The notes under the pieces were generated by a model. It was not told the origin of the DNA and did not search any database. It saw only the letters and a list, made by a program, of their open reading frames with translations. From a virus: a DNA stretch of 64,000 nucleotides. This document shows positions 8,552 to 28,702 of the stretch, piece by piece (position 1 is the first letter of the stretch; each line of letters opens with the position of its first letter). The stretch is from the IMG/VR virus record IMGVR_UViG_3300033233_000027, positions 13,685 through 77,684 of that record. One strand, written 5' to 3'. A program made the position numbers and the translations under genes.

Positions 8552-10654
8552 ATGAGACGGCGAAAGTACGAGCGGTTCTCTGAAGACGACAAGGCAGCGA
8601 TGCTATCGCTGTCGAAAGAAGGTCTGCGGTCAAAGGAGATCCAGACTCATCTTCCACATCTGCCAACCCAGCGAATCAGCGGATTCCTTCGAATGCACAA
8701 GGCCCCAGGAGCGAATCCAAATCCTCGATCGACCGTTCTAGTACGAACGACGGCTGAGGCCGCACCGCAAGTCAGGGCCGCTGCTGCCGCAGCCGCTTCT
8801 GGTAATGTGCAGGCTTCATCCAACCCACTTCCGTTTGCTGCTCAACCTACAACCGCAGCGCACCATCAATCGCAGCCATCTGCGGAATATGACTTCCGGC
8901 CGACGCAGACCCCGATGGTGACGAGCGGAGGAATTCCGGTATCATCTGGTCAGGGTCAGAGACTGGAAGTCGAACGAATCATTCCGCAAGATGGGCTTCT
9001 TGGCGTTCACCCGATGTCGTTCTTGAAAGATGATATCGGTCGTGTTTATGGTTCTGGAACATACAGAATCACGACGCGCTCAAATAGTGGACAAATAATG
9101 ACCGCAGAAGTTCCTATTGCGGCCACCTATGGTCCTCCGCTTTCACCGAAGCGTTATTCTGGGCGAGAAGGACAGCCTGATCGGTCACAACCGAAGCTAT
9201 GGAACGATCCACAAGATCAGCAGTATCGCTTTGAACGCGCAGAGGCGCTTCGCGCTTCTCATAGTCCAGCTGAAGATCTCAAGAACACCGTCCAAGCTAC
9301 GAAGGAACTCATGACGCTTGCGAAGGAAAACGGCCAGGACAGTTCTGGCGGTTACGCTAGAGCCATGGAGACGCTGGCTGCCGCCGCATCGCAGCCGAAG
9401 TCTCAGGAATCTGGGGTGCTTGAGAAATGGTTCATTGCGGACGCAGAACGCCGTTCGATAGAGCGCAAAGAATCTGAGGAACGTCGGGAACGCGAACGTC
9501 GTGAGGACATGGAGCGCCGAGATCGTGATCGGAAGGACGACCAGACGCGTTTCGATCAGATAATGGAACTTGATCGCCAGCGGGCTGTGAGTTCCAACAA
9601 AGAAAAAGATGACGCACACAAGCGAGAAATGGAAAGGCTGAAGGAAGAGAACTCCGCTCGAGTTGCTTGGGAAGCAGAACAGAGAAAAACGCTCCTAGAA
9701 CTCGAGGCGAAGAAGATCGAACTCGTGACCAAGGCGCAAGAGGCTAGGGAGAAGGAACTTGATCGCCGTATTGAAGAAGTAAAAGCTGAGGCAGAGTCTG
9801 GCAGGGATTCGATCCAGGGAGAGCTAGAAAAAGAGCGCGATCACCAGACGGCAATGTTCGATCTTCGGTCAAAGCAACTCGACATACAGGAAAAGTTCCA
9901 GAATGAAAAGCTGGATATGCAGCGCCAGCAGATCACTTCCTCTAGTGCGGATAGCGTCCTCTGGGGGACGGTAAAGGATCTGGTAGACAAGGGCTCTAAG
10001 GCATTTGAGAGATACACGGAGACTGAACAGCTCAAGATGGTTGTCGAAGAGGCTAAAAAGAACGGCGTTAGTCCTGGAACTGTAGCAGACCTCGGGCGGG
10101 CAGCCATGGCTGGGAATATGCAGCCTGAGGCAAAACACACTTCCACGGGCCAAGCCTCCAATACAAACGGAAATGGGAATGGAAAGGGGGCGGAAGTGGG
10201 CCTACTCGACCGATTCTTCAAGGATCCGATCTTTGCTGAAGTCGTGGAGGAGTGGGGCCTTGCGGTCTCTGTCAAGGCAAAGCCGAGTACATTCGCCAAC
10301 ACTTTCCTAGTCTGGATGAACGATCCAGAAAACACGACATACAAGAAGGCGACATCGACCTTTGCTCTGTTCCTTGAGAACAGAGACTGGCCATCGATGT
10401 TTGAAGCCATGCAGAGAAATCTTTCTGCCAAGATCACGGAGCCATTCAAGTCTCCGTATGCGGCTGAATTCTATGAGGCATTCCGCGTCATCGTCGTGGA
10501 GAGTACGCGTTATCTCTACGCGGAGTTCATGCAACAGCGGGCTGACCAAGAGGCTCGTGTTGCGCAAGAAGCGGCAGCGAACAACGGATCTTCTGAACCT
10601 GTAGCGGAAGAGTCGTCTCAGCCCCTGAAGGAAACGGAGCGCATCAGGGCATGA
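8552..10654 (+). CDS. large coiled-coil protein with N-terminal HTH-like segment (possible scaffold/assembly factor)
   Basis: Start set at MRRRKYERFS (GAGAGGG RBS); long E/R/K coiled coil; ATGA-coupled to the transglutaminase-like gene. Confidence 0.7.
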   Translation: MRRRKYERFSEDDKAAMLSLSKEGLRSKEIQTHLPHLPTQRISGFLRMHKAPGANPNPRSTVLVRTTAEAAPQVRAAAAAAASGNVQASSNPLPFAAQPTTAAHHQSQPSAEYDFRPTQTPMVTSGGIPVSSGQGQRLEVERIIPQDGLLGVHPMSFLKDDIGRVYGSGTYRITTRSNSGQIMTAEVPIAATYGPPLSPKRYSGREGQPDRSQPKLWNDPQDQQYRFERAEALRASHSPAEDLKNTVQATKELMTLAKENGQDSSGGYARAMETLAAAASQPKSQESGVLEKWFIADAERRSIERKESEERRERERREDMERRDRDRKDDQTRFDQIMELDRQRAVSSNKEKDDAHKREMERLKEENSARVAWEAEQRKTLLELEAKKIELVTKAQEAREKELDRRIEEVKAEAESGRDSIQGELEKERDHQTAMFDLRSKQLDIQEKFQNEKLDMQRQQITSSSADSVLWGTVKDLVDKGSKAFERYTETEQLKMVVEEAKKNGVSPGTVADLGRAAMAGNMQPEAKHTSTGQASNTNGNGNGKGAEVGLLDRFFKDPIFAEVVEEWGLAVSVKAKPSTFANTFLVWMNDPENTTYKKATSTFALFLENRDWPSMFEAMQRNLSAKITEPFKSPYAAEFYEAFRVIVVESTRYLYAEFMQQRADQEARVAQEAAANNGSSEPVAEESSQPLKETERIRA

Positions 10655-11352
10655 CCGAACACAAAAGGCTGCGGAGGCTTGGCATCGCGATTGATGCCGC
10701 CCCACCAGCCTATGGTGAAGTATTACGGACTCCTCTGGAGGACGACTTCGGGGGCATCCGGTTTGAAGTCGGTCGTGCTGTCCAATACGTAAAGGAAGGT
10801 GGCGCAGATCCGCTTGTGGTTGACACGGCGAGATATTGCGCGATGCTCGCGAGAGATACGGCAGAACAGCTTGGTTTTCCCGTAACTCCTGAGAACGCAA
10901 AGTTGATTGACCTGGAGGGGGTATTCCTTTGGGTCCAGGCCAACTTCGTTTACGTTGATGATCCAACTGGAGTGGAAGTGATGCAGACAGCACCTCGTAT
11001 GCTCCGTCAGAAGATGACGCCGCATGAAGTGCTGGAATGGATGTGGGCTCCGATTCGAGATGGAATGGCTCTTGCCCGCGGTATTGATCCATCGGAATTA
11101 AGCTGTCCTGAAGGAAAAGTGATCGGAGATTGCGAAGAGGCTGCCTGTCTTCTGTTGGCCATGGCTGCCGCTCTTGATATCGGTCCTCTGAAGTTCCGCT
11201 TCGGCGGGAATGATGGCCAACTCCACCATGTTTGGGCTTCTGCTATGGCTGGTGGAGAGTGGCGCGACATGGATGCTACTCAGCGCCAGTTAGGGTTCGA
11301 TCAGTTTCTGCCATTCGACCACTTCGATGAACTGGAGGTCGAACTTCCGTGA
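10651..11352 (+). CDS. transglutaminase-like cysteine protease (Cys-His-Asp triad)
   Basis: GDCEEAACLLLAMAAAL...HHVW...WRDMDAT; upstream YVDDP. Confidence 0.8.
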   Translation: MTEHKRLRRLGIAIDAAPPAYGEVLRTPLEDDFGGIRFEVGRAVQYVKEGGADPLVVDTARYCAMLARDTAEQLGFPVTPENAKLIDLEGVFLWVQANFVYVDDPTGVEVMQTAPRMLRQKMTPHEVLEWMWAPIRDGMALARGIDPSELSCPEGKVIGDCEEAACLLLAMAAALDIGPLKFRFGGNDGQLHHVWASAMAGGEWRDMDATQRQLGFDQFLPFDHFDELEVELP

Positions 11353-11969
11353 TCCTAGGAAAATGGTCTGATGGGCCACGCCTCGGCGCGGTTGAGCTGG
11401 TTGAGCTAGGCTCAATTCGTCGTCACGCCTCCATGGGTGGCTTCCTAGACTTCTTAGGTGGGTTCGCTGGAGAGGTTGCTGGATTCTTCGGGAGTGCTGT
11501 TGGCGCTGGGTTGGGATTCCTTAAGGATGCGCTGAATGTCGGGCTGAAGCCGCTGATGGATGGGGTTGCGTCTGCCTTCACTGGGCTGGCAGATATCCTT
11601 CGGGAGATCCCGCTCATCGGGGAAATCGTTGGTGGCCTCATCCTAGTTATCAACGCGGCCATTCAGACGCTGCTCTCTCTTCCGGGGCTCTTGATTGACG
11701 CGCTTCCGAAGATTCTTAAAGGACTGACCAGTTCGTTCTTTGGGGCGTACGGTAAGGATGAGCAGAGTTCAATCCTAAGCACGGTTCTGCCGAAAGTGGC
11801 CGCCAGAGCTCCAGAGCCGATTCGGAATGTCGTCAAGACCACGCTGGCTGAAACTAGGCCAGCGATTGACGGTTCGGTACAGCCACCCGAATCTGCGGGT
11901 GGAATTGATCCGCTTGTAATCGCCGGGGTCTCTGCCGCGGTTGTTGCCGCAGCTCTGATCGCGGCTTGA
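11349..11969 (+). CDS. putative virion membrane protein
   Basis: RLGAVELVELG leader, Gly-rich amphipathic/hydrophobic helices, C-terminal TM. Confidence 0.65.
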   Translation: MILGKWSDGPRLGAVELVELGSIRRHASMGGFLDFLGGFAGEVAGFFGSAVGAGLGFLKDALNVGLKPLMDGVASAFTGLADILREIPLIGEIVGGLILVINAAIQTLLSLPGLLIDALPKILKGLTSSFFGAYGKDEQSSILSTVLPKVAARAPEPIRNVVKTTLAETRPAIDGSVQPPESAGGIDPLVIAGVSAAVVAAALIAA

Positions 11970-12004
11970 CCTATCCAAGGCCTATTTTTTTTGGAGAAGA
12001 CACG

Positions 12005-12709
12005 ATGGCGGAGAAGAAGGGGGCGGGCACCAAGCCTGCCGGTTCCCGCCGCGGCGGGAACGTCGTGGTGGATCTCGGCGAGACGATTGACGACGTGATC
12101 GACGCCGCAGTCGAAGCTGGCTACAAACCAAAGCAGGGTTTGGGAGCGGCTGGTAACACGAAGCCAGGTGGGTATCGCCCTGGTTTCCTCGGTTCGAATT
12201 TCCGACCTGGTATCGGATTCCGTCCGAGCGGTATTCATCCATCCAAGCTGGGTATGGCCCTCAATATCCAGAGGACCGTGGACACGATGAAGGTTTTGGG
12301 TGGGTCCATTGCGGGCATGGCGTTCAACCGTGTTCTGTATCGAGCCATCCCGAAGGTGTCCACGTCCGTCACGTCGGAGCTGCTGGTCAATGGAGCGGCT
12401 GCCGTTCTTGGAGTCGCGCCCTACTTCCTTTTCAAGAAGGAAGGTCATGGAAGCGATTTCCTCGTCGGATTCGCGATCCCAGGCGTCGTGACATTCGCTG
12501 GATCGCTCTTCGACAAGCTCCTTGGCGCGGTCGCCTCCAGCGTCCTTCCGAAGCCGATGCTGTCTGGCCCGGATGCGTCCCGGCCAGCGACGGACGCGCA
12601 TCGTGCTTTGGCGGAAGCCAACCGTACGCTTGACGCGCTCAAGGGCCGGATGGGCCTACAGCGTCAGACGGTTGTGTCTCTGCCACGGGTTCAGGGGGTG
12701 GCTTCTTAA
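12005..12709 (+). CDS. putative virion membrane protein
   Basis: GGAGAAG RBS; RPG repeats, about three hydrophobic helices; upstream of the candidate capsid gene. Confidence 0.65.
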   Translation: MAEKKGAGTKPAGSRRGGNVVVDLGETIDDVIDAAVEAGYKPKQGLGAAGNTKPGGYRPGFLGSNFRPGIGFRPSGIHPSKLGMALNIQRTVDTMKVLGGSIAGMAFNRVLYRAIPKVSTSVTSELLVNGAAAVLGVAPYFLFKKEGHGSDFLVGFAIPGVVTFAGSLFDKLLGAVASSVLPKPMLSGPDASRPATDAHRALAEANRTLDALKGRMGLQRQTVVSLPRVQGVAS

Positions 12710-12713
12710 TAAA

Positions 12714-12810
12714 CATCCGCAGAGGGGGAAGGCGCCAACCCGTCCCCCGGGGAGGGGGCGCAGGGCGCCCCAAGGGTCGGACGCGGGTGGCGCCTACCCC
12801 GTGCGCGGTG
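12714..12810 (+). ncRNA. GC-rich long stem-loop in the 5' leader of the candidate capsid gene
   Basis: Nested pairs CCGC/GCGG, GGGG/CCCC, AGGCGCCA/TGGCGCCT, ACCCG/CGGGT, GGGGCGC/GCGCCCC. Confidence 0.5.
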
Positions 12811-12869
12811 AAGTGTGTTTGTGAACGAACTGTAACTGTGAATAACTGAAACGAACGAAAGGGAAGACA

Positions 12870-13628
12870 ATGGGCGAAACGATGCGCGATTACATTCCGC
12901 AACGTCCTCAACGTATCGGCATTTACGACAACAGCACCGGAAAGGTGACTGAGGCCGTCTATTCCGAGTGCGCTGACCAGACGCAGAGTGTTACTATCGC
13001 TTCTGGTACTGGCACGTACGATGTTACTCTCGAATTTCCCCAGACGCAAAACTCGGACTGCGATGCGACTCTTGGTCATGGAGTGGAGATCTCGTATCTC
13101 TCCGGTGGTGGTGCGACCGGCATGACGATTGGAGATCTCGCCAAAGTCCTTACTTCGGGCACGATTGAAATCACTCGTGCTGGCCAGAAGTGCGTCGATC
13201 AGCGCGAGATGGCTCAGGCGAATTTCCTTGTTCAGTTCCAGGCTGAAGCTGCGTTGGCTGCTGGCCGCGTGGCTGCTGGATGGAATAATGAGCAGATTTA
13301 TCGTGCTGGCCAGTGCACGCCTATCATGCTCTATACGAATAGGGATGTGATTCTGGTCAGGCTCCGTGGAGCTCAGCCAGATGAAACCCAGGTTGTTGTC
13401 GTGAAGCTCATCTTTACCCGCTACACGACGCAGCCAACGACTCCTTCCTGCGCACTCCTGCCGCTCGCTATCTTCCAGGGCTCTGCTTTCCCTGTGAAGT
13501 TCTACGAGAGTCTCCCAACCAGGGAAGCGCAGCCTTGGGATGTCGCTGATCTTTCTGGGGCTAACCAGGTGGCTACGCTTACGCATGGGGTTCAGCAGGG
13601 TCTTAGCGCGGAGCGTGGAATCGCGTAA
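12870..13628 (+). CDS. candidate major capsid protein (single jelly-roll-like)
   Basis: Beta-strand-rich, no TM; DLAKVLTSGTIEITRAGQK...PIMLYTNRDVILVRL...VVVKLIF pattern; strong RBS (GAAAGGGAAG); flanked by a structured leader and a terminator. Confidence 0.55.
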   Translation: MGETMRDYIPQRPQRIGIYDNSTGKVTEAVYSECADQTQSVTIASGTGTYDVTLEFPQTQNSDCDATLGHGVEISYLSGGGATGMTIGDLAKVLTSGTIEITRAGQKCVDQREMAQANFLVQFQAEAALAAGRVAAGWNNEQIYRAGQCTPIMLYTNRDVILVRLRGAQPDETQVVVVKLIFTRYTTQPTTPSCALLPLAIFQGSAFPVKFYESLPTREAQPWDVADLSGANQVATLTHGVQQGLSAERGIA

Positions 13629-13660
13629 CGTCTTCAGGGCGACCAGAAGGAACGTATTAC

Positions 13661-13694
13661 CCGGCGTGCGCCGATTGTCGGCGTACGCCGGTTT
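13661..13694 (+). terminator. intrinsic terminator / stabilising hairpin after the candidate capsid gene
   Basis: CCGGCGTGCGCCGA-TTG-TCGGCGTACGCCGG followed by TTT. Confidence 0.65.
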
Positions 13695-13720
13695 CCATCA
13701 CCTTCTGACGGTGTTGCTAG

Positions 13721-14329
13721 ATGACCGAACAACTAAATACAGATATTCCGTTCCTGCGACTAAAGGGGCAGCATGAAGTGCAAGGAGATTGCTTCATACG
13801 CCCATCGGACTTCTTTTTTGCAGAGAGATTCCAAAAGAAGGTAGAGGCACTAAAGAAATCGTCTCCACTCCTTGCTGAGGCGATCTGTTTTGCCCAGGCC
13901 TTGGGCCTGATGGAGCCTGCGGAAGCTCGTAGACCAGGGGCTGGCAATGCAGTAACCAGAACAAGGGTTGGAGTTACGGTTCCTCGAGCGACAGTAAATC
14001 CAGCTCAGCCTAATATAATCATACCTGGGGTATTTGAAGCGTTCTCTACCTGTCCACCAATGGGCACGTTAGGAATCGCCGGTAAGATTGATGTTATTCC
14101 GGCGAATACGACTGCGATCAGCTTCGGGCGTGTCTTCTATCAGCATATGATCGTTGGCGTAGGTAAAGATCTCTGTGTGGATTGGAATTTCCCAGACTGC
14201 CCAGGTTTTGTCACGACGGCAGAAAACTTCTTCATATCCCCTACGGGGATCAGGGTTTTCCTTCAGAATAGGTCTAGGACAGGAGAGGCGCTGTTCTCCG
14301 TTGAGGCAGAAATATGGCCAGTGCTGTGA
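13721..14329 (+). CDS. putative structural protein (beta-rich C-terminal half)
   Basis: 202 aa; alternating hydrophobic strands in the C-terminal half. Confidence 0.55.
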   Translation: MTEQLNTDIPFLRLKGQHEVQGDCFIRPSDFFFAERFQKKVEALKKSSPLLAEAICFAQALGLMEPAEARRPGAGNAVTRTRVGVTVPRATVNPAQPNIIIPGVFEAFSTCPPMGTLGIAGKIDVIPANTTAISFGRVFYQHMIVGVGKDLCVDWNFPDCPGFVTTAENFFISPTGIRVFLQNRSRTGEALFSVEAEIWPVL

Positions 14330-14366
14330 TCTTGTTCCGTCGCGCCGATATGAATAAGGTGAGAAA

Positions 14367-14762
14367 ATGGGGGTCGTAAGCGGAGGACCGATACCGTACA
14401 TGATTCCCACCAGCCAGGACACGCTGAAGGTGGTTGAGTCGGATGTACCGCTCGCATTTGGCGGCGTGTTTAGTTCTGAGATAACCATCTTCCGTGGGTA
14501 TTCGGTCTTATGTGCATTGGTCATCACCGATCAGTCAACTTTGTTAGAAGTTACTGAACGGTGCGACTCAGACGCAGCAGATTTGAAAGATGGGGTAGTA
14601 ACTGAGTCTGCATTGACCGCAGTGGATCCAGTCACGGGGAAGAATTTCCTCTGCAAGCGATTTGAGCCATGCGGCAAATTCGGGAGTATCACGATCACAA
14701 ACAAAGGCCTCATCGCTCAAACTTTCCTGCGACTGTGCGTCTACTTACTCCCTATCCGATAG
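14367..14762 (+). CDS. putative small beta-sandwich structural protein (penton/spike-like)
   Basis: 131 aa, all-beta pattern; AAGGTGAG RBS. Confidence 0.55.
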   Translation: MGVVSGGPIPYMIPTSQDTLKVVESDVPLAFGGVFSSEITIFRGYSVLCALVITDQSTLLEVTERCDSDAADLKDGVVTESALTAVDPVTGKNFLCKRFEPCGKFGSITITNKGLIAQTFLRLCVYLLPIR

Positions 14763-14775
14763 TGCGGAGTCGATC

Positions 14776-15057
14776 ATGGCGTCCTTGGCGGCAAGAATCG
14801 CGACTCTGGTAACGGAGCAGCAGAACGTCAAGCACGCCATCGAGAAAGAGGTTGAGGAGCGCCGTCGCGATCACGATGAACTCACGAAAGTAATAGGATC
14901 CGTGAGCAATCTGAAGGAAAAGATCGATACGTTGGATGGAGAGAAGAAGGAGAGGGACAAGGAGTCCCGCTCAAGAAACTGGCAGGCATGGTTCGCGATA
15001 GCTACGGCCCTTCTCGGGATTGTATTGACGCTCCTGAAAATCAAAGGGGCAGTCTGA
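14776..15057 (+). CDS. coiled-coil protein with C-terminal TM (holin/XhlA-like architecture)
   Basis: Coiled coil then WQAWFAIATALLGIVLTLL. Confidence 0.6.
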   Translation: MASLAARIATLVTEQQNVKHAIEKEVEERRRDHDELTKVIGSVSNLKEKIDTLDGEKKERDKESRSRNWQAWFAIATALLGIVLTLLKIKGAV

Positions 15058-15064
15058 GGTAGTC

Positions 15065-21319: not shown

Positions 21320-21330
21320 AGATTACCGAC

Positions 21331-21653: not shown

Positions 21654-21758
21654 ATGAGTAATATGCCTGACGGAGGGATCCCGCTCAAAGAGGGAGCCAC
21701 GCTCGGCTCCTGTTCTACGAAGCGCAAAGATGGGATGAAAGTCTCATCGATGGGCTGA
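21654..21758 (+). CDS. 34-aa peptide (not in ORF track)
   Basis: MSNMPDGGIPLKEGATLGSCSTKRKDGMKVSSMG; GGGGAGG RBS; fills the operon gap. Confidence 0.5.
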   Translation: MSNMPDGGIPLKEGATLGSCSTKRKDGMKVSSMG

Positions 21759-21761
21759 GGG

Positions 21762-22475
21762 ATGGCTATGGCAAGTATCCCCTCCGGTGGAGGTGGACTA
21801 AGGCTTGAGTCGTATGCGGCTCCAAAACAGAGCGTCCAGATTCAGCAGAGGTCGATGGCTAAAAACTCTTCTGAGGACTCGTGCCCAGAATGCGGAATCG
21901 GTAATGGTTGCGGGTGCTTGGCCAAGGTAACTATGGGCAAGGCGAAGTGTGACGGAAAATGGGGGGAGGGCGGGGCAGTACCGGAGATCAGTAGAAAAGT
22001 GCCGATTATAGTTCGAGCCAAGCCGATGCCTGGAACCGAACGGAGCGGAATCAACTACCCTCCGATGGGTCAGCCATCGAAGAAAGGTATCGCGCTAGGA
22101 CAGAATGCTTACGGCTTCAGTCATGCGGCCACAACGGAAGAAGTTACATCGCTCCTGCGGTCCCTAGAAAAGGCACTCGCAGATGTGGCCGCTGCGGCTG
22201 ACGGACAGAACGCCCCAGCTTGTGTCCGCGACATCATGGCGGGATCGTATCTGCTGGCTAAGAAGACCGCAGAAAAGATGCGCAACTTCATCATGGCAAA
22301 TGTGCCAAAAGTAGAGTGGCTATTGACTGATGGTGAGGCGGCAGTTGCTGGTGAAGTCCTGAAATGTGCAGCAACCTTGCAGTCATCCAGCACTAAGATG
22401 GAATCGGATGACACTGGGATGGCTGCTGCCATCGCTCTTGGGCTTGGGGCCCTCGTTCTTTTCTTCGTCGTGTGA
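21762..22475 (+). CDS. tail-anchored putative virion protein
   Basis: TMGK, PMGQ, ALGQ motifs; C-terminal TM. Confidence 0.65.
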   Translation: MAMASIPSGGGGLRLESYAAPKQSVQIQQRSMAKNSSEDSCPECGIGNGCGCLAKVTMGKAKCDGKWGEGGAVPEISRKVPIIVRAKPMPGTERSGINYPPMGQPSKKGIALGQNAYGFSHAATTEEVTSLLRSLEKALADVAAAADGQNAPACVRDIMAGSYLLAKKTAEKMRNFIMANVPKVEWLLTDGEAAVAGEVLKCAATLQSSSTKMESDDTGMAAAIALGLGALVLFFVV

Positions 22476-22789
22476 TGGGAGAAAGTTCCATGGGTCAACA
22501 ACTGCGTCTCATGAATAATAGGATACTTGGACAGGAAGCCCTACGGATCGGTCCTATTCAGATCAAGACGCCAAGCCCAGCCATCTCCGAACTTCAGAAA
22601 GCAGCTGTTCAGGAGTCTACGGACAAAGTAGAGATGGTGACTAGGGTAACATCAGCATTGACGAACCATTTTGAGGAATTGTCTGCGTTCTTGCTCGGAA
22701 CGGACACGACCGCTGAGGTGGTGAAACAGGCGACTCAGAGCCTGACCTCTGCCGTTGACAAGAGAGACGCTGTGATCGGATCTGTCTGA
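22472..22789 (+). CDS. hypothetical protein
   Basis: SMGQ...RILGQ leader; coupled to the previous gene. Confidence 0.55.
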   Translation: MMGESSMGQQLRLMNNRILGQEALRIGPIQIKTPSPAISELQKAAVQESTDKVEMVTRVTSALTNHFEELSAFLLGTDTTAEVVKQATQSLTSAVDKRDAVIGSV

Positions 22790-22824
22790 TGAAAAAAAGC
22801 CTACCGCCCTGACAGCTTGGAGCG

Positions 22825-23091
22825 ATGAAACGTCCAACGGGTTCCGTTGGAGTATCCAAGACTTTCAAGGTGTCCAAGAAGATCAGAGGAGCAGAGGTGT
22901 CCGCTCCTGGCTTGGGAAGGGCCCTAGTTGCGGTAGTGAAGGTATCGAAATATAGATATGTGGTGGCGGCTCCGAAGGAGCTCGGAGGAGCGAAGTCCGT
23001 TCCTGCTGACTCTTTCACGGATGCGCTGCACTGGACCGTGTCGCAAATGAACACAAAGGCGAAGAGAGAGGCGAAGGGGAAAAAACGATGA
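22825..23091 (+). CDS. small basic protein
   Basis: K/R-rich, 88 aa. Confidence 0.55.
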   Translation: MKRPTGSVGVSKTFKVSKKIRGAEVSAPGLGRALVAVVKVSKYRYVVAAPKELGGAKSVPADSFTDALHWTVSQMNTKAKREAKGKKR

Positions 23092-23561
23092 ATCAACCAA
23101 TGCCAATCATGCTCCGTCCGTCCGGTATACGACTTCCAGTCATGCTTCCATCTACGGTAAGGTCCTCAGCTAACCCGATTATCAGGTCCGCAGCGCGGCC
23201 ACCAGCTCTGGCTGGTGTCAAGCTCGGACAGGCATGGAAAGAAGCAGGCCTCCTTGACTTTCCTATATTTGCCATTGCCCGAGATGGCGGTGCCACCATG
23301 TTGGGTCTCTTGGTGGCCATGCAGCATCGGGGTATCAATACAGTCATGGGCGTAATCGGCCTTGTGACTGGAGCTCTCGGTGGGATTGGATTGGCGAATG
23401 ACTTGTGGAAAGTAGCATTTGATAAGCCGCTCATCGGAATGGAATCAAAAGATTTTGGAGCCCTCTTCATCACCGCGGGCGTTGTAGGAGCCCTCGGCTA
23501 TCTCATGTTCGGAAACCCAGGATCGACAGCCTCAAGGGCCCTCAAGAAGGTGACTGCGTGA
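23088..23561 (+). CDS. multi-TM putative virion membrane protein
   Basis: Pro/Arg leader ending VKLGQ, three hydrophobic helices. Confidence 0.65.
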   Translation: MNQPMPIMLRPSGIRLPVMLPSTVRSSANPIIRSAARPPALAGVKLGQAWKEAGLLDFPIFAIARDGGATMLGLLVAMQHRGINTVMGVIGLVTGALGGIGLANDLWKVAFDKPLIGMESKDFGALFITAGVVGALGYLMFGNPGSTASRALKKVTA

Positions 23562-24310
23562 TCCAAAGAACCACCCTGCCGATCCGTCTGGCCAGACCGA
23601 AGATGGCGATGCCGGCTTTGCTTGGGTTCGTTCCCCCGAAATCACATCCACAGTTAGGTGCCGGACTCATCTCTGACCTACTTGGGGTGGATGTCCCAAA
23701 AATAGGAGTAGCGGCGATCTTGGCTGCTGGAGGCGTAGGAGCCTTGTTCGCTACTAAGATACTTCCTGAACCATTCAATACAGTAGCCGCTATCGGTGGC
23801 GTTGGCTTACTGGGTATTTCAATATACGAGTTGATCGATTCCTTTGGTGGTCCATCGGAAGCATCAAAAATACAAAGCGGTGAGACCGTGGATCTCACCA
23901 CGCATCCGAGGGTAACTCCGCAGGAGGTTCAGGATAAAAAGGTAGACGCTCGCTTCATTGAGCCACTTGAGAATGCGAATGTCTTGAAAAATCCGTTCAG
24001 ATCTGGCGCATACGTACCAACGAAGCTGATCGTAACAAATGATACAGGCAGATTGGTCACGGTTCGCCTTCTGTTCCAGGTAGTTGAGGGTGATGGATCT
24101 GTAAACTCCTATCACGAAGACAGGATGGCCGATCAAGGAACAAACACAAGAACATTTGATGCCCCGATAACTTCATACAGTGCTTTCTCGTGGCCACCCT
24201 GGCAACCAACAAGTGCGTGTGTCCAGGTTCGTGCAACGACGATAGAAAATGGGGTGGAGATTAAATATCCAGGTGGATGGGACGATCAGCGGTGCTTCAA
24301 TGTCATATAG
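23558..24310 (+). CDS. membrane protein with C-terminal beta-sandwich
   Basis: PIRLARP...PQLGA leader, two TM helices, Ig-like C-terminus. Confidence 0.65.
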   Translation: MIQRTTLPIRLARPKMAMPALLGFVPPKSHPQLGAGLISDLLGVDVPKIGVAAILAAGGVGALFATKILPEPFNTVAAIGGVGLLGISIYELIDSFGGPSEASKIQSGETVDLTTHPRVTPQEVQDKKVDARFIEPLENANVLKNPFRSGAYVPTKLIVTNDTGRLVTVRLLFQVVEGDGSVNSYHEDRMADQGTNTRTFDAPITSYSAFSWPPWQPTSACVQVRATTIENGVEIKYPGGWDDQRCFNVI

Positions 24311-24343
24311 ACCTAGAGCAGAGCCAATGTTTAGGGTAAACAG

Positions 24344-24616
24344 GTGAAGTTGAAGTTCGTGGATGTCCCTGAAGGCGGCTGCTTCGCATCAGGCAGCGGA
24401 CGGCCATCAAAGAAGTTGGTCGACGGTCGCTGTGCCTCCATCACCAAGAAGGGGAAGCAGCGCATCGTGCGATGCCCGAAGCAGGAGAGGGACGTGCAGA
24501 CAACGACGTGCCCGCTCTCTCTCCTTGGGGCTGGCCTGTCTGGTCCAAAGCGCGGCCTCGTGGAAATCGGACGCGCATTGCCGCATGAGCCTGAAAAGCG
24601 AAAAGGACGGCGATGA
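24344..24616 (+). CDS. small basic Cys-rich protein
   Basis: 90 aa, four Cys, K/R-rich. Confidence 0.55.
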   Translation: MKLKFVDVPEGGCFASGSGRPSKKLVDGRCASITKKGKQRIVRCPKQERDVQTTTCPLSLLGAGLSGPKRGLVEIGRALPHEPEKRKGRR

Positions 24617-25536
24617 GCGATTTCCTGAGAGATCCAGAAGGCCTGATCGATGCCTTGCGGGACTACTCGCCAGATGGCGTTCATGTCCTATCCCCGCTAG
24701 GTGGAGGAACGATCCGCCATCAGATCTATGGTAGGGAATTGGATATCAGCAAAACGCTTCCTGTCGCTTCGTTCCGAGTGGATCTGGACGATCCAATTCC
24801 GTTTGAAGAACACGCCGCAAAACTGAGGCTCTCTCCAGAAAAGATGACCGAGAAAGAACTACGAAAACTCTGGCGGGGCCATGAGCCTCCATTTCCAAGC
24901 GAAGTTCTGGAGCGCGGACTGAGCATGATGGACATCGAAGAGATGTCTTTCAGGAACATGGAATGTCTGGATGACGAAAGACGGATCGTCTGCTATGTCT
25001 TCGGCTGGAGAGACCTTGTCGTGGATCCTCTATTCCCTGGGGCCATGGTGGAATACGAAGAGGGCCGCAGTGGTGTTGCCTCCAAAGGAATATTGCCTGG
25101 AAGAGTCGCTGGAGGTGACAAGTCAATCGTCTTCCTGGAACTGTTCGAGCCGATGACTGCATCGGAAGCTAACCAACTCAATACCGCGCCATCAGCTATT
25201 CAATCTGGATTCTACAGTAAAAAAACTGTAGCGATCGGCGGAAATACATGGGATGCATGGACGGTTTCAGATCCAGATTCCCTCCCAAAGGGAGATAGAG
25301 TTGAGATCGGTGGAGGAGAATACGAGGTCAGGCTGGACGAGCCTCTTGATCTATCCAAGATTGCTGAATTCTGCTCCAAGCACTACCCAGATGAGCCTGC
25401 CTGTGTCTGGCAGTCGCTCCTCTTCTTCGTACTTCCGCTCAACGCCAACAAAGGGGGAAGATTCCATCCGCTTCGTGCTGGTCAGGAAGGTACGTACATG
25501 GATGCGCTGGAATGGGAGATCGGGCACGGATTATGA
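24613..25536 (+). CDS. hypothetical acidic protein
   Basis: 307-aa ORF, ATGA-coupled. Confidence 0.65.
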   Translation: MSDFLRDPEGLIDALRDYSPDGVHVLSPLGGGTIRHQIYGRELDISKTLPVASFRVDLDDPIPFEEHAAKLRLSPEKMTEKELRKLWRGHEPPFPSEVLERGLSMMDIEEMSFRNMECLDDERRIVCYVFGWRDLVVDPLFPGAMVEYEEGRSGVASKGILPGRVAGGDKSIVFLELFEPMTASEANQLNTAPSAIQSGFYSKKTVAIGGNTWDAWTVSDPDSLPKGDRVEIGGGEYEVRLDEPLDLSKIAEFCSKHYPDEPACVWQSLLFFVLPLNANKGGRFHPLRAGQEGTYMDALEWEIGHGL

Positions 25537-25594
25537 GAGAGGAATTCTTTGAGCGAGCGGGGGTGCGTGGTATCATCCCCGCTGGGAGAGACGC

Positions 25595-25966
25595 ATGAAG
25601 GTATCGGCTAGGCTTGGCACAGGTGGATGCCCCTCTGGGAAGATTCGCAGGAAGGCCTACACGACGCGTAAGGGCGTTCATGTCAAGTCATCATGCGTTC
25701 CTGACAAGGGAACGAAAGGAAAGGGTCCAAAAACTCTTCCAACACCGAGGCCTGGCTCGCTCGAGGGCTGGAAGAAGGATCTCCCATCAACGGAGCGCCA
25801 CGCCATCCTGCACGATATCACCAAGCGCGAAGGGTGCGGCGTAGCCATAAAAAAGCTGACGCTTCTCCAGAACATCACGGCTGATGCGGCAACGAAGCGC
25901 ACAGCCAAGACAGACAAGAAGTGGCTGAGAGGCCAGGGATTCTGCGAGCTTGCGAGGGGAAAATGA
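25595..25966 (+). CDS. small basic protein (possible nucleoid/core protein)
   Basis: ARLGT then CPSGKIRRKAYTTRKG...SCVPDKG...RHAIL...KKL...DKKWLR. Confidence 0.6.
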   Translation: MKVSARLGTGGCPSGKIRRKAYTTRKGVHVKSSCVPDKGTKGKGPKTLPTPRPGSLEGWKKDLPSTERHAILHDITKREGCGVAIKKLTLLQNITADAATKRTAKTDKKWLRGQGFCELARGK

Positions 25967-26220
25967 AAACGAAGCTCGGGGCCATAGAACTGGTGGAACT
26001 CGGTCGCGCCTCAAAGCGCGTCTGCGCTAGGGCAGTCAAGAGCGGTAAGCGGTGGGTCGTGCGCACCTCAGATGCGGGTTCCGGTGCCGGCAGGAACTGG
26101 ATTGAGGCTCCGTGCCTTCGCAGCAAGAAGAAGTCGAAGGCGCGTACGTTCCTGACTCGCTCCATCGCAGAAGCCCATGCGCGAAAGTGCGGAATCATGC
26201 TGTGCCGAAAAGGAAAATGA
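25963..26220 (+). CDS. small basic protein
   Basis: MKTKLGAIELVELGR; ATGA-coupled. Confidence 0.6.
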   Translation: MKTKLGAIELVELGRASKRVCARAVKSGKRWVVRTSDAGSGAGRNWIEAPCLRSKKKSKARTFLTRSIAEAHARKCGIMLCRKGK

Positions 26221-26262
26221 GTCGGTAATATACTTTTGACTAGGACGAAAGGGGGGATAGGA

Positions 26263-27042
26263 ATGCAAGCGAGACCACTGGGGTATTATGGGCGTATCAA
26301 GCCTTCACCAATCAGGATCCCGCAAGGTGCCCGCTCAGCGGCACTTGGAGCTGCGATCATTCTGGATCAGCAACTTGCCGCAAGCGTAATCCAGCGATGG
26401 AATGGGGCGAATCAGGGAAAGAACGAAGCCCTAGCTGTACTCACTAACTTCCCGTACGATACAGCTCCAGTAGGTTCATATTCGCAACTGGATGGGGCCG
26501 TTACCAACTTTGAGACGCTCAACGGATCGGCTGGAATCGTAAGCCTTGTAGGAAAAGCTACCCTAGTTCTTCAAAACAACGCACCCTCCTTCACGTCACA
26601 GGAAGAACTACAGGCTCTTAATGCGCTGGAGAACATGGGGCATCTGCTACAGAAAGCAGCTCAGGCGCTGATGAGTATTCCTCCTCCGACCCCAGCCCAA
26701 CCGCCACAAGGCATTCTCCTGTCGGCCGCAGAGGCTAATGGATACAACGCTGCCGTGCAGTCGCTTCTCGAGGCTATCGGACTGCTTGGAACCCCAGCCA
26801 TCTTGGTGCCGCATAAGGCTGCATTGCAGGCGCTTTCTGGCAACTTGCAGACATCCCCAGTCTATGTGCCACCCAACTTTGCCTCCACAATCCAGGCGGC
26901 TTCTGATGCGGTTACGACTGAGAGGAATAGACAGGCTGCGTTGGCCCAAACAGGACAGACTCCAGTTGCTGGAGATCAGACCGCGCTCTACGTTGGCGGT
27001 GGCGTTGCGCTTACTGCCTTGCTCCTTATTGCGTTTGCCTAA
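26263..27042 (+). CDS. tail-anchored putative virion protein
   Basis: PIRIP...AALGA leader; domain shared with 27070; C-terminal TM. Confidence 0.7.
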   Translation: MQARPLGYYGRIKPSPIRIPQGARSAALGAAIILDQQLAASVIQRWNGANQGKNEALAVLTNFPYDTAPVGSYSQLDGAVTNFETLNGSAGIVSLVGKATLVLQNNAPSFTSQEELQALNALENMGHLLQKAAQALMSIPPPTPAQPPQGILLSAAEANGYNAAVQSLLEAIGLLGTPAILVPHKAALQALSGNLQTSPVYVPPNFASTIQAASDAVTTERNRQAALAQTGQTPVAGDQTALYVGGGVALTALLLIAFA

Positions 27043-27069
27043 ACCTATGATGCGGGCTATGCCCGCAAT

Positions 27070-27744
27070 ATGAATTGGAGAATAGCGATGAATCAGCCGA
27101 TCAGACTCGCACGACAATTTTCTCCCATCGGAAAGTCGATCCGCCTTGCTGGTGCCCGTCTTGGGAATCCAGATACATTCCTGTCGGATTCTCAGGCATC
27201 TGCGGTCAGGCAGGGCGCACAGACGCTTCTGCAAGCGATCGGGGCGTTGGGAAATCCAGCTAGTCTTTCTTCCTGGAAAAACTGGCTTGAGACCTTCTCG
27301 TACAGGCTTCAGCAGCCACCAGTTTATGTGGCAGATGACTACACCTCCACTCTCCAGGGGGCGTCCGATGCAATTGCGGCAGAGAACGCTAAGCAGGGTG
27401 GCCAGGTCCCGACGATGTTCCTCTACGCCGAAGAGGCGGCTCCATGGTCTGAGGCAGCTAAAGCGATTCTAGCTGAGATGGGAAATATCGGTAATCCAGC
27501 ATCCTTGGCCCAGCATAGGAGTAATCTGGAATCCCTAGTCTCGCAGTTCTCAGATGTCAAGCAGGATACCACGGGTCGAAATTATGTCGTGGTTCGATCT
27601 GATTATGGCCAGAGGATTGAAAACGCCAGAGCTGCTACGCAGCAGGCAAAGGCTTCTCCAACCGCCTCAACTGGTCCATCTACGGTCGAAGTGGCTGGTG
27701 TAATTGGAGTGATCGGCCTCGGCCTCTGGCTCGCGTTGGGTTAA
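27070..27744 (+). CDS. tail-anchored putative virion protein with internal duplication
   Basis: PIRLARQ...ARLGN leader; two GNPASL repeats; C-terminal TM. Confidence 0.7.
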   Translation: MNWRIAMNQPIRLARQFSPIGKSIRLAGARLGNPDTFLSDSQASAVRQGAQTLLQAIGALGNPASLSSWKNWLETFSYRLQQPPVYVADDYTSTLQGASDAIAAENAKQGGQVPTMFLYAEEAAPWSEAAKAILAEMGNIGNPASLAQHRSNLESLVSQFSDVKQDTTGRNYVVVRSDYGQRIENARAATQQAKASPTASTGPSTVEVAGVIGVIGLGLWLALG

Positions 27745-27796
27745 AAACTGCGGCACACCAATGGTAGGCAGCGTCTGAATAGCGAGGAGAGTAAAG

Positions 27797-28234
27797 TTGC
27801 CTGATACGGCCCCGCATCCAGCAAGATATCTGGATGCTACTAAGGAGGAGGCCCAGGCCTTCACTACTGCCGCCAAGCATGTGCTGGACTATGTGGCGCA
27901 GCATCTGGACAGTTCCCACGTCGCCTGCGACCCAGGAATTGCCGTATGGGCCAATAGGCTCTCTGCCGCTGTGGCACGCCTAGACCAGGATAAATCTGGC
28001 TTCTACAAGATCCCGTCAGAGGCTATTGAGGCCATTGCCAGAATATCAGAATGCGCCACAGCCATCTCCAGACACGTCGATCTGGTACGTCTGATTGCCT
28101 TCGTGGGCAGTTCTGCCGGCACATTCGGGCTTTTGGCCCTGAAACTGCCCATTCTGGCCTGGGTTGGCTACGGGGCCGCAGTGGCAGCCACGGTAATCGG
28201 CCCTTCCGTACGCATACCGCTCCTAGAGGATTGA
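27797..28234 (+). CDS. membrane protein
   Basis: GAGGAG RBS; two C-terminal hydrophobic helices. Confidence 0.6.
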   Translation: MPDTAPHPARYLDATKEEAQAFTTAAKHVLDYVAQHLDSSHVACDPGIAVWANRLSAAVARLDQDKSGFYKIPSEAIEAIARISECATAISRHVDLVRLIAFVGSSAGTFGLLALKLPILAWVGYGAAVAATVIGPSVRIPLLED

Positions 28235-28237
28235 GCC

Positions 28238-28702
28238 GTGATGTCGAAGAAGCGGATCCTCTACATCGTGCTCCCTGATCCGACCTTGGCGGGAGAAAGA
28301 CACCTCTGGGGCTGGACCATCCTGACTGGGAGAGGTGGCCCAGATGTCCATGTGGTCGACGGAAATGAGATGGCTAAGATCGTTGGGGGAGGGGTTGTGG
28401 TTCCAGCGGTCGGCTGGAAGAGAAAGGCTCGAGTGTCTTTCCAGGAAGAACTGACCATACCAGTCGGACCTGAACGTGCCTGGAATGAACTGGCCAAAAC
28501 ACTCAACCCTCAACCCAGCGAAGGTTCCGTCTCGGCAAAATACTCTGGTCCTTGGACTGGTGGTCGCTGGAGGATCGCTGGTCCATTCTGTTGTCCAGCA
28601 GATGCGTCTGGATTTGCGGCCGACGATGCGGGCCATACAGGGGCCAGCATCGCCGTGGAGCTCTGGACGATGACTTCAGGGAAGTGGAAGAGAACGGGTT
28701 GA
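28238..28702 (+). CDS. hypothetical protein (last gene of the + block)
   Basis: 154 aa, Trp-rich. Confidence 0.55.
   Translation: MMSKKRILYIVLPDPTLAGERHLWGWTILTGRGGPDVHVVDGNEMAKIVGGGVVVPAVGWKRKARVSFQEELTIPVGPERAWNELAKTLNPQPSEGSVSAKYSGPWTGGRWRIAGPFCCPADASGFAADDAGHTGASIAVELWTMTSGKWKRTG

What the first reader, a model, noticed from the sequence alone, without database searches (positions are those of the whole stretch)
8552..28702. 20-kb morphogenesis operon of an apparently non-tailed, membrane-containing virus
Seen: about 35 co-oriented, often ATGA-coupled genes. About a dozen end in a single TM helix without a signal peptide. There are several very basic small proteins and a beta-rich 252-aa gene flanked by a structured leader and a terminator. 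I recognise no terminase, portal, HK97 capsid, tape-measure or tail gene in the window. Known: viruses with vertical single jelly-roll capsids and inner membranes (Thermus phage P23-77, haloarchaeal SH1) have this kind of gene content but much smaller genomes. Inference: a large, possibly undescribed lineage of lipid-containing virus, with 12870..13628 as the capsid protein and 13721/14367 as minor jelly-roll proteins.
Basis: partly seen in the sequence, partly recalled or inferred. Interest (0 to 1): 0.85.

Follow-up and report, generated by a model that had tools for sequence, protein, structure and literature searches.

The report
Large tailless jelly-roll bacterial virus module
This 20-kb gene block is most likely the particle-building module of a complete, uncultured 77.5-kb bacterial virus that has no head, portal, tail or DNA-packaging-motor genes of ordinary phages. 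It seems instead to build a jelly-roll protein shell over a membrane, a design described so far only in viruses several times smaller, and a relative closes into a 349-kb circle.

Summary
There are 34 co-oriented genes (11 with 4-base start/stop overlaps), strongly enriched in tail-anchored membrane proteins, with several very basic small proteins. Gene 12870 sits between a structured leader and a strong hairpin.

The contig is a complete 77.5-kb virus record with end repeats. No ORF of 60 aa or more anywhere on it matched a terminase, portal, HK97-capsid or FtsK/A32 ATPase model. DnaB is its only credible P-loop protein.

The block 752-aa protein / Cys-His-Asp protease / two membrane proteins / 12870 family / 13721 family / 14367 family recurs in 32 metagenome loci. 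It also recurs in two IMG/VR contigs that join into a 349,408-bp circle, which lacks the same hallmarks.

In relatives the 14367 domain is fused to collagen and beta-helix fibres, as in PRD1 penton and spike. The folds of 13721 and 14367, the lipid content and the host remain untested.

The scan has reported similar large tailless jelly-roll viruses on other DNA. None shares sequence with this one.

The parts
8396..10654 (+). First conserved gene of the module: 752 aa, with an HTH-like N-terminal part, a long Glu/Arg-rich coiled coil and a C-terminal globular part. Proposed as scaffold, size-determining or DNA-binding protein (inferred).
   Evidence: Homologues sit directly upstream of the protease gene in 25 related loci and in the 349-kb relative. 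No Pfam/PHROG/PDB family; only coiled-coil (SMC-type) noise.
10651..11352 (+). Transglutaminase-like Cys-His-Asp protease candidate; proposed maturation protease.
   Evidence: 16 database homologues and 32 loci. GDC[DE]E, LHHVW and D208 are invariant or nearly so. Sub-threshold Transglut_core match over the catalytic stretch, window 11113-11277, 16.3 bits.
11349..11969 (+). Gly-rich hydrophobic protein with a C-terminal anchor; proposed membrane component.
   Evidence: Homologues in 20 loci in the same position; TM segments; only a weak compositional tape-measure hit, E 0.009.
11966..12709 (+). Basic (pI 10) protein with a hydrophobic segment, always directly upstream of the capsid-candidate gene.
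   Evidence: Homologues in 18 loci and the 349-kb relative; pI and TM.
12710..12869 (+). Structured G+C-rich 5' leader of the capsid-candidate gene.
   Evidence: -70.4 kcal/mol, z -3.5. A long structured intergenic leader lies at the same position in 6 related loci (z -2.7 to -5.2).
12870..13628 (+). Major capsid protein candidate (252 aa), jelly-roll type.
   Evidence: One direct homologue, 34% identical, on an 86-kb contig. Collinear profile match to the positional counterparts in related loci: hhalign E 0.001-0.004 over about 193 columns, control families 12-28 columns. The family model is nearest to SPV1 and HHIV-2 capsid proteins. ESM Atlas nearest named clusters are jelly-roll capsid families.
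13629..13720 (+). Perfect 14-bp G+C hairpin 3' of the capsid-candidate gene; proposed partial terminator or mRNA stabiliser.
   Evidence: z -5.9. An 11-14-bp hairpin lies at the same position in 6 related loci, with different sequences.
13721..14329 (+). Conserved 202-aa neighbour of the capsid candidate; proposed minor or second capsid protein, fold untested.
   Evidence: Family of 10 loci, always directly after the capsid-candidate gene, including the 349-kb relative. No family or Atlas lead. No paralogy to 12870 by hhalign.
14367..14762 (+). 131-aa beta-rich domain protein; proposed vertex (penton or spike-anchor) protein.
   Evidence: jackhmmer family. It occurs as stand-alone 119-154-aa copies downstream of the capsid gene in 6 loci. 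It is also the N-terminal domain of a 445-aa collagen-repeat protein (L003:9672-11009) and a 975-aa beta-helix protein (L014:14862-17789).
15065..15556 (+). Response-regulator receiver-domain protein inside the operon.
   Evidence: Pfam Response_reg, 1e-21; homologue in the 349-kb relative.
15553..16480 (+). Three small conserved proteins: a 2-TM protein, a lipoprotein with lipobox LSFAG|C, and a soluble helical protein.
   Evidence: 41-54% identical homologues in the same order in the 349-kb relative; sequences.
16477..28702 (+). Array of about 22 genes: tail-anchored or multi-TM proteins (16477, 17055, 17859, 18605, 20217, 21331, 21762, 23088, 23558, 26236, 27070, 27797). They include paralogue pairs 17055/17859 and 26236/27070, and small very basic proteins (22825, 25595, 25921). 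Proposed internal-membrane and DNA-condensing components.
   Evidence: 24344, 25595 and 28238 have homologues in the 349-kb relative. No family hits.
31015..31746 (-). Paralogue of the protease with Cys->Ser and His->Tyr at the catalytic motifs.
   Evidence: 37% identity over 227 aa; alignment columns.
48621..50458 (-). Two paralogous collagen-repeat proteins; proposed virion fibres.
   Evidence: Pfam Collagen. 60% identical to each other, and their C-terminal domain is shared with the 350-aa protein at L001:1513-2565.
61012..64000 (-). 694-aa beta-helix-like protein followed upstream by a 443-aa collagen-repeat protein that runs over the contig junction; proposed fibre or spike proteins.
   Evidence: Sequences. 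No family except compositional collagen hits.

Best explanation
Window 8396..28702 is the virion module of a complete 77.5-kb virus of a bacterium that is not a tailed phage.

Proposed working, with each step marked. Shown: the first seven genes form a conserved core that recurs in relatives. Its order is coiled-coil protein, Cys-His-Asp protease, two membrane proteins, capsid candidate 12870, 13721, and vertex-domain protein 14367. Supported by models: the 12870 family has a jelly-roll-type beta-sandwich core of about 170-185 residues plus a flexible Pro/Gly tail, nearest to the capsid proteins of SPV1 and the sphaerolipoviruses.

Inferred: this protein forms the outer icosahedral shell. 14367 sits at the vertices and, in relatives, anchors collagen or beta-helix fibres. 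In this genome the collagen and beta-helix proteins on the other strand serve as fibres, perhaps glycosylated by the large glycosyltransferases. The dozen tail-anchored proteins populate an internal membrane. The small very basic proteins condense the DNA. The protease trims shared N-terminal leaders.

Because the genome has no P-loop protein other than DnaB, the DNA is most likely enclosed by co-assembly of a condensed nucleoprotein core, membrane and shell, as proposed for SPV1. It is probably not pumped into a preformed shell.
For: Completeness and viral nature:
- The contig has a 120-bp end repeat and is an IMG/VR record with CheckV completeness 100.
- An intact collagen-repeat ORF spans the junction.
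- It carries three tRNAs, and HNH endonucleases, an integrase and a methylase.
- Identical fragments occur in a second sediment study.

No tailed-phage or packaging hallmarks:
- Every ORF of 60 aa or more on the contig was scanned against Pfam and PHROGs, and 37 unknowns against NCBIfam, without a hit to such a family.
- Six-frame searches for Terminase_6N (run on the two relatives only), TerL_ATPase, Terminase_3, Phage_capsid, Phage_portal, SPP1_portal, FtsK_SpoIIIE and Pox_A32 found nothing above cut-off in the records searched.
- DnaB is the only credible Walker A in six frames.

Conserved module:
- 32 metagenome loci share the gene order.
- The 12870 positional counterparts are 52-98% identical to each other.
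- They match the 12870 profile collinearly.

Fold:
- AlphaFold2 on 14 sequences gave pLDDT 63.9 and pTM 0.60, with the core at 80-90.
- The top Foldseek hit is SPV1 6oj0, probability 0.99, E 1.4e-3.
- ESM Atlas features place 12870 next to P3, Capsid_N and P2 capsid clusters at 0.93.
- SPV1 lacks a packaging ATPase (PMC8812541).

Vertex logic: the 14367 domain is fused to collagen or beta-helix fibres in relatives.

Expression architecture: leader and hairpin around the capsid gene are conserved in position in 7 loci.

Membrane: TM enrichment p 4e-5.

Bacterial host: DnaB and a DnaD-like loader, a lipobox in 15883, and Shine-Dalgarno sites.
Against: - TM-scores are low (0.29/0.36).
- The good model is of a homologue only about 20% identical to 12870. 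The 12870 model itself failed (pLDDT 39.6).
- The link between the two subfamilies rests on synteny plus an hhalign E of 0.001-0.004.
- No particle, lipid or protein data exist.
- Motor-less enclosure of 77-349 kb of DNA has no precedent.
- The host is unknown.
- The 349-kb relative carries many cell-like genes (release factor, sugar-nucleotide enzymes), which would also suit a megaplasmid.
Confidence: 0.58

Rival explanations
1. Same kind of virus, but the shell protein is a compact double jelly roll (kingdom Bamfordvirae, like PM2 P2 of 269 aa or PRD1 P3) rather than a single one.
For: ESM Atlas named neighbours are double-jelly-roll families (PRD1 P3, NCLDV Capsid_N, PM2 P2). ESMFold-model TM is 0.48-0.56 to NCLDV and PM2-type clusters and to GH172. 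At 252 aa, 12870 is close to the 264-aa PM2 P2-type coat-protein cluster that the Atlas lists. The penton-domain/spike fusion logic matches my recollection of PRD1 P31/P5. Odin-group and FLiP double-jelly-roll viruses also lack the ATPase (PMC5894146).
Against: The better model shows about 11 strands in one core of about 170-185 residues and a disordered tail, not 16 strands. Single-jelly-roll capsids outrank the double ones in both VIA lists. The Atlas model itself had pLDDT 0.49.
Confidence: 0.14
2. A tailed phage (Caudoviricetes) whose terminase, portal, HK97 capsid and tail proteins have diverged beyond profile detection. The membrane-protein operon would be accessory.
For: Most proteins are ORFans, so absence of hits is weak in itself. 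Collagen and beta-helix proteins are common phage fibres. The DnaB/DnaD-like replication genes are of phage type.
Against: No P-loop protein except DnaB in six frames. Eight hallmark families are absent from the complete records searched. The most conserved, best-expressed-looking gene models as a jelly roll. No long tape-measure-like or baseplate-like gene series was found.
Confidence: 0.08
3. Not a virion module: a plasmid-like or integrative element whose operon builds a cell-envelope or surface structure (anchored fibres, glycosylated collagen coat). 12870 would be an ordinary beta-sandwich surface protein.
Against: No ParA, VirB4, VirD4 or relaxase-type P-loop protein is present either. 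The records are classed as viral, with end repeats in G000 and CheckV completeness of 90-100 in all three. It has three tRNAs and HNH endonucleases. The two top structural neighbours of 48,161 are capsid proteins of the virus type predicted beforehand from gene content. Most operon proteins lack signal peptides, so they are not exported surface proteins.
Confidence: 0.12
4. An enveloped pleomorphic or otherwise non-icosahedral virus (plasmavirus or pleolipovirus style). The membrane proteins would form the envelope, and 12870 would be a spike or nucleocapsid protein rather than a lattice-forming shell.
For: There is no packaging ATPase, there are many membrane proteins, and basic DNA-binding proteins are present.
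Against: From memory, known viruses of that build have genomes of about 7-17 kb. The jelly-roll neighbours of the 12870 family are lattice-forming capsid proteins. A small vertex-type domain fused to fibres suggests fivefold vertices.
Confidence: 0.08

Closest known systems
[quoted passage not shown]
   Same: It is the best structural neighbour of the 12870-family model by Foldseek and by both VIA searches. Neither encodes a genome-packaging ATPase (PMC8812541 for SPV1; here). From memory of the SPV1 literature, it is also circular dsDNA with an internal membrane and a protein-condensed DNA core, which is what the gene content here suggests.
Sphaerolipoviruses and relatives (kingdom Helvetiavirae: HHIV-2, HCIV-1, SH1, Thermus phage P23-77)
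   Different: They encode an FtsK-HerA packaging ATPase (PMC8812541); none is present here. Their two capsid proteins are paralogues, whereas 13721 shows no likeness to 12870. Their genomes are far smaller (from memory).
PRD1 / PM2-type double-jelly-roll phages (Tectiviridae, Corticoviridae) and the ATPase-less Odin group
   Same: Atlas features place 12870 beside their capsid families. The small vertex domain, both stand-alone and as the N-terminus of a collagen-shafted fibre, recalls PRD1 P31 and P5 (from memory). Odin-group and FLiP viruses also lack the ATPase (PMC5894146).
   Different: Prokaryotic double-jelly-roll viruses are reported at roughly 7-18 kb (PMC5894146). The model here shows one sandwich, not two. 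No Pfam capsid family matches.
Large tailless jelly-roll bacterial viruses reported earlier by this scan on other genomes (e1-6046413, e1-6046423, e1-6053426, e1-6066267, e1-5952945, e1-5978995)
   Same: The overall picture is the same: 76-135-kb genomes, no terminase or portal, jelly-roll shell candidates, SPV1 or sphaerolipoviruses as closest known. I reached SPV1 before reading these notes.
   Different: No short-word sequence likeness between this genome's module and any other window of the scan. Whether they are one deep lineage is untested. Here a relative reaches 349 kb.

Membership tests
Caudoviricetes (tailed phages) | Terminase large subunit (P-loop ATPase plus nuclease) | tested here: not met
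   No Pfam or PHROG terminase hit in any ORF of 60 aa or more. TerL_ATPase and Terminase_3 are absent in six frames of G000, G001 and G002, and Terminase_6N in G001 and G002. DnaB is the only credible Walker A.
Caudoviricetes (tailed phages) | HK97-fold major capsid protein and portal protein | tested here: not met
   Phage_capsid: no match. Phage_portal: only 13 bits, below the 39-bit cut-off, and in the relatives alone. SPP1_portal: none. Folds of the large ORFans were not predicted, so extreme divergence is not excluded.
Portogloboviridae (SPV1-like) | VP4-like single-jelly-roll major capsid protein | tested here: inconclusive
Portogloboviridae (SPV1-like) | No virus-encoded genome-packaging ATPase | tested here: met
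   The SPV1 property is taken from PMC8812541.
Portogloboviridae (SPV1-like) | Archaeal (Sulfolobales) host and a genome of about 20 kb | tested here: not met
   77.5 kb. Bacterial-type DnaB and DnaD-like loader, lipobox lipoprotein and Shine-Dalgarno sites. The source is a sediment metagenome.
Portogloboviridae / Helvetiavirae / Bamfordvirae prokaryotic members | Internal lipid membrane in the virion | not testable with these tools
   Only indirect: 18 of 33 operon proteins have hydrophobic segments and 9-11 are tail-anchored.
Helvetiavirae (Sphaerolipoviridae, P23-77 group) | Two adjacent paralogous single-jelly-roll capsid genes | tested here: inconclusive
   13721 always follows the capsid candidate (10 loci). 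The Atlas model had pLDDT 0.33.
Helvetiavirae and most Bamfordvirae | FtsK-HerA / A32-type packaging ATPase | tested here: not met
   FtsK_SpoIIIE and Pox_A32 are absent in G000, G001 and G002. No P-loop other than DnaB.
Bamfordvirae (PRD1, PM2, STIV type) | [quoted passage not shown] | tested here: inconclusive
Transglutaminase-like cysteine proteases (for gene 10651) | Cys-His-Asp triad in a Transglut_core-like domain | tested here: inconclusive
   Cys161 is conserved in all but the in-genome paralogue (nearly invariant), His192 and Asp208 are invariant and His193 nearly so across 18 sequences. The Pfam PF01841 match over that stretch is 16.3 bits, below the 23-bit cut-off. No PDB sequence hit.
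Salisaeta phage SSIP-1-like tailless phages (named in earlier notes of this scan) | Sequence similarity of virion proteins | tested here: inconclusive
   tblastn of 12870, its L018 homologue, the protease and the 585-aa protein against 50,697 GenBank phage records found nothing. I did not verify that SSIP-1 is in that collection.

The most novel reading that the evidence does not exclude
A lineage of bacterial viruses spanning 77 to about 350 kb builds an SPV1-like single-jelly-roll shell over an internal membrane and decorates it with glycosylated collagen and beta-helix fibres. It encloses its DNA without any packaging motor, by co-assembly with small protamine-like proteins. This would be a prokaryotic, tailless counterpart of giant viruses and the first case of motor-less encapsidation of hundreds of kilobases.
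Probability: 0.35. Interest if true: 0.95.

Novelty: new variant of a known kind. Interest (0 to 1): 0.8.

Why it matters
Described tailless, membrane-containing viruses of bacteria and archaea are small. Double-jelly-roll ones are reported at 7-18 kb (PMC5894146), and SPV1 and the sphaerolipoviruses lie in the tens of kilobases. Current schemes treat a packaging ATPase as needed for larger dsDNA genomes.

A 77.5-kb complete genome, and a 349-kb relative, with a jelly-roll shell candidate and no P-loop protein besides the replicative helicase would break both size and mechanism expectations. They would extend the SPV1-type 'ancestral' capsid state (PMC8812541) to bacteria. They would also show that soil and sediment viromes hold large viruses that marker-based tools built on terminase and HK97 genes cannot classify.

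The conserved seven-gene core defined here gives a practical probe for finding the rest of the lineage.

Tried and rejected
- **AlphaFold2 of 12870 with its single homologue:** pLDDT 39.6, unusable. Foldseek on that model gave no significant hit. The list was dominated by jelly-roll capsids, but I do not count it.
- **Sequence searches with 12870:** 5.8 billion clusters, self only. 1.84 billion representatives, one homologue. A profile of both, nothing more. PDB sequences, nothing. GenBank phages, nothing. IMG/VR, JGI metagenomes and GTDB genomes by pattern, nothing.
- **The look-up of encoding contigs was closed.** The 86-kb and 66-kb Logan contigs of the nearest relatives could not be fetched.
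- **The protease profile** found nothing in GTDB genomes or IMG/VR, so no provirus and no host were found. The genome search draws no relatives for a virus record.
- **ESM Atlas for 13721:** no lead.
- **Complex prediction** of the 12870-family core with the 13721 family: no verdict.
- **Sequencing runs:** no RNA holder listed. Contigs only, so no ends or expression could be read.
- **An apparent Walker A** in the 248-aa protein after DnaB lies upstream of the likely start, in a coiled-coil protein, and was rejected. The 'ALAPIGKT' in the 904-aa Pro-rich protein has no ATPase context.
- **PHROG 'tail fibre' hits** are collagen-repeat composition.
- **PDB sequence searches** of the protease profile, the 694-aa protein and the 752-aa protein gave nothing useful.
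- **The scanner's promoter and terminator counts** do not exceed shuffles.
- **The PHROG and Pfam tallies for the 349-kb relative** list only 25 families each, so weaker hits there went unseen.

Full report
**1. Observation**

Window 8396..28702 carries 34 genes, all on the + strand, and 11 junctions are 4-base start/stop overlaps. A hydropathy scan finds hydrophobic segments in 18 of 33 operon proteins, against 17 of 104 elsewhere on the contig (Fisher p 4e-5). Nine end in such a segment (p 4e-4), and two more have weaker C-terminal anchors.

Small very basic proteins are present: 22825, 25595 and 25921, with pI 10.5-11. Gene 12870..13628 encodes an acidic 252-aa protein with no TM segment. 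It follows a 160-nt G+C-rich leader (z -3.5) and precedes a perfect 14-bp hairpin (z -5.9).

**2. The whole genome**

The window is bases 13685-77684 of a single 77,684-bp contig whose first and last 120 bases are identical. IMG/VR lists it as a virus record with direct terminal repeats and CheckV completeness 100. A 443-aa collagen-repeat ORF reads in frame across the junction. This supports closure, but it also means the repeat lies in repetitive DNA.

Recognisable genes:
- A DnaD-like loader and DnaB.
- An integrase and a C5 methylase.
- Family-2 glycosyltransferases, including a 1386-aa one.
- Several collagen-repeat proteins and a 694-aa beta-helix-like protein.
- HNH endonucleases, and YukD-like and DUF4160/DUF2442 proteins.
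- Three tRNAs.

The source is a sediment metagenome, and identical low-coverage fragments occur in a second sediment study.

**3. No tailed-phage or packaging genes**

All ORFs of 60 aa or more on the whole contig were scanned against Pfam and PHROGs, and 37 unknowns against NCBIfam. None matched a terminase, portal, capsid, tail or packaging-ATPase family. The 'tail fibre' PHROG hits come from Gly-X-Y repeats.

Six-frame family searches found nothing above cut-off for TerL_ATPase, Terminase_3, Phage_capsid, Phage_portal, SPP1_portal, FtsK_SpoIIIE and Pox_A32. Control genomes gave matches in the same searches. A six-frame Walker-A scan leaves DnaB as the only credible P-loop protein.

**4. Relatives**

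The 12870 protein has a single homologue among 1.84 billion representatives: P0002, 34% identical, on an 86-kb Logan contig.

The neighbouring gene 10651 proved the better handle. It has 16 homologues with a conserved GDC[DE]E ... LHHVW ... D pattern. It also has a sub-threshold Transglut_core match exactly over that stretch. Its profile retrieved 32 loci from JGI metagenomes, on contigs of up to 242 kb.

These loci share the gene order:
- 752-aa protein (25 loci)
- protease (32 loci)
- 11349 (20 loci)
- 11966 (18 loci)
- a 239-260-aa ORF
- 13721 (10 loci)
- 14367-like domain

The 239-260-aa ORFs are 52-98% identical to each other. BLAST does not link them to 12870. However, the 12870/P0002 HMM ranks 13 of these 15 positional counterparts among its 22 weak hits out of 1,484 ORFs. 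hhalign aligns the two profiles collinearly over about 193 columns (E 0.001-0.004), while control families give 12-28 columns. Shared motifs line up: ADxxQ, S-x-C-D/E-A, Y-T-T and A-[FYW]-P-V. I take them as one family.

In seven loci the gene is bracketed by a long structured leader and a strong hairpin. Their sequences differ, which is the signature of a separately tuned, abundant product.

**5. A 349-kb relative**

Two IMG/VR records carry the family gene cut at a contig end: G001 (236,090 bp) and G002 (266,490 bp), with CheckV completeness 90 and 92. G001[1-153,090] equals G002[113,401-266,490] at 99.999% identity. The last 82 bases of G001 equal the first 82 of G002. Together they close a 349,408-bp circle.

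This circle carries the core module and homologues of 15065, 15553, 15883, 16148, 24344, 25595, 28238 and the giant glycosyltransferase. The same hallmark families are absent. Its large ORFs match sugar-nucleotide enzymes, methyltransferases, RNA ligases, UvrD helicases, ribonucleotide reductase, a release factor, ligase and integrase. Those two tallies list only 25 families each. The join comes from two samples and needs confirmation.

**6. Fold**

The model of 12870 itself, built with two sequences, failed (pLDDT 39.6).

A 14-sequence alignment headed by the L018 homologue gave pLDDT 63.9 and pTM 0.60. Residues 30-120 and 150-185 score 80-90. The model has about 11 strands in one core and a disordered Pro/Gly tail.

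- Foldseek's best PDB hit is the SPV1 capsid (6oj0, probability 0.99, E 1.4e-3, TM 0.29/0.36).
- ESM Atlas features for 12870 itself point to jelly-roll capsid clusters (P3, Capsid_N, P2) at 0.93.

**7. Vertex logic**

The 14367 domain (about 120 aa) occurs as stand-alone copies downstream of the capsid gene. It is also the N-terminal domain of a 445-aa protein with a long GxQ collagen shaft and a C-terminal beta domain, and of a 975-aa protein with a short collagen stretch and beta-helix repeats. From memory, this matches the PRD1 pattern of penton P31 and spike P5.

It ties the collagen and beta-helix proteins of this genome to the particle. These lie on the other strand, next to large glycosyltransferases.

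**8. Mechanism proposed**

The shell is built of the 12870 protein. 14367 sits at the vertices and fibres project from them. The tail-anchored proteins fill an internal membrane, and the small basic proteins condense the DNA. The Cys-His-Asp protease trims the recurrent N-terminal leaders that end near an (R/K/Q)-(L/M)-G motif (seen, and the subject of two other notes of this scan).

With no motor, genome enclosure would be by co-assembly, as proposed for SPV1, FLiP and the Odin group (PMC8812541, PMC5894146). Only the gene conservation and the model-based fold are shown. The rest is inference.

**9. Comparison and novelty**

The closest known are SPV1 (fold neighbour, no ATPase) and the sphaerolipoviruses (fold neighbours, but with an ATPase). 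PRD1/PM2-type phages share the vertex logic. Membership in any of these families is not supported:
- there is no sequence similarity;
- the host features are bacterial (DnaB, DnaD-like loader, lipobox, Shine-Dalgarno sites);
- the genome is 4 to 17 times larger.

Prokaryotic double-jelly-roll viruses are reported at 7-18 kb (PMC5894146). My literature searches found no description of such large tailless bacterial viruses, although the library is incomplete.

The scan itself has reported similar 'large tailless jelly-roll bacterial viruses' in at least eight other genomes. None shares short-word similarity with this one.

**10. Verdict**

- Observation confirmed.
- Interpretation partly supported: tailless virus and jelly-roll capsid candidate yes, at moderate confidence; lipid content and the folds of 13721 and 14367 untested.
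- Confidence in the best explanation: 0.58.
- Rivals: a double-jelly-roll variant (0.14), a non-virion surface operon of a plasmid-like element (0.12), a hyper-diverged tailed phage (0.08), and a pleomorphic enveloped virus (0.08).

Noticed in passing
L036-L061 (IMG/VR records G001 and G002): The two viral contigs of 236,090 and 266,490 bp overlap by 153,090 bp at 99.999% and by 82 bp at the other ends. They close a 349,408-bp circle, and the joint lies inside the capsid-family gene. The element encodes a peptide-chain release factor (PCRF/RF-1), a TROVE protein, two RNA ligases, a PolX-type thumb, an Ice-binding-like protein and GDP-mannose dehydratase.
   Followed up: partly
window 63096-64000 and L001:1-547 (contig junction): The 120-bp terminal repeat of the contig lies inside a 443-aa collagen-repeat gene (about 100 GxQ triplets). 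The genome length may therefore be off by some repeat units, although the ORF stays in frame across the junction.
   Followed up: partly
window 11349-11969 and 25921-26220: Two otherwise unrelated proteins share the N-proximal motif LGA(V/I)ELVELG. Many operon proteins carry Pro/Arg-rich leaders that end near (R/K/Q)-(L/M)-G, for example YRLGQLDYG and YQMGQVDYG in the paralogues 17859 and 17055.
   Followed up: no
L001:6523-9237 (- strand; outside the window): A 904-aa Pro-rich ORFan carries at least three copies of a motif like PxP(I/V)xxPIxLxxLP(L/I)V. The motif resembles the N-terminal leaders of the operon proteins. It might be a docking partner or a decoy for them.
   Followed up: no
window 15883-16146: An 87-aa protein with a classic lipoprotein signal and lipobox (AICAVLSFAG|C). 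This hints at a bacterial host. It is conserved (42% identity) in the 349-kb relative.
   Followed up: partly
window 15065-15556: A stand-alone response-regulator receiver domain (Pfam 1e-21) sits in the middle of the structural operon. It is conserved in the 349-kb relative, which is unusual for a virion module.
   Followed up: no
window 43405-43476: A tRNA-Ile with anticodon TAT, alongside tRNA-Gln(TTG) and tRNA-Pro(TGG). This anticodon is uncommon.
   Followed up: no
window 31015-31746: A second copy of the protease gene on the other strand has Ser for the catalytic Cys and Tyr for one His. It is probably inactive.
   Followed up: partly
window 53701-54390 and the small ORFs scanned in alignment A1: An AbiEii-like nucleotidyltransferase (weak match), and a DUF4160 and a DUF2442 protein, possibly a toxin-antitoxin-like pair. 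This suggests the virus carries defence or addiction genes. The scan output did not place the DUF4160 and DUF2442 proteins on the map.
   Followed up: no
L003:8926-11009: Three tandem copies of the 14367-like vertex domain, the third fused to a collagen fibre. L003 also carries a 55%-identical homologue of the giant glycosyltransferase directly downstream (13177-14805).
   Followed up: partly
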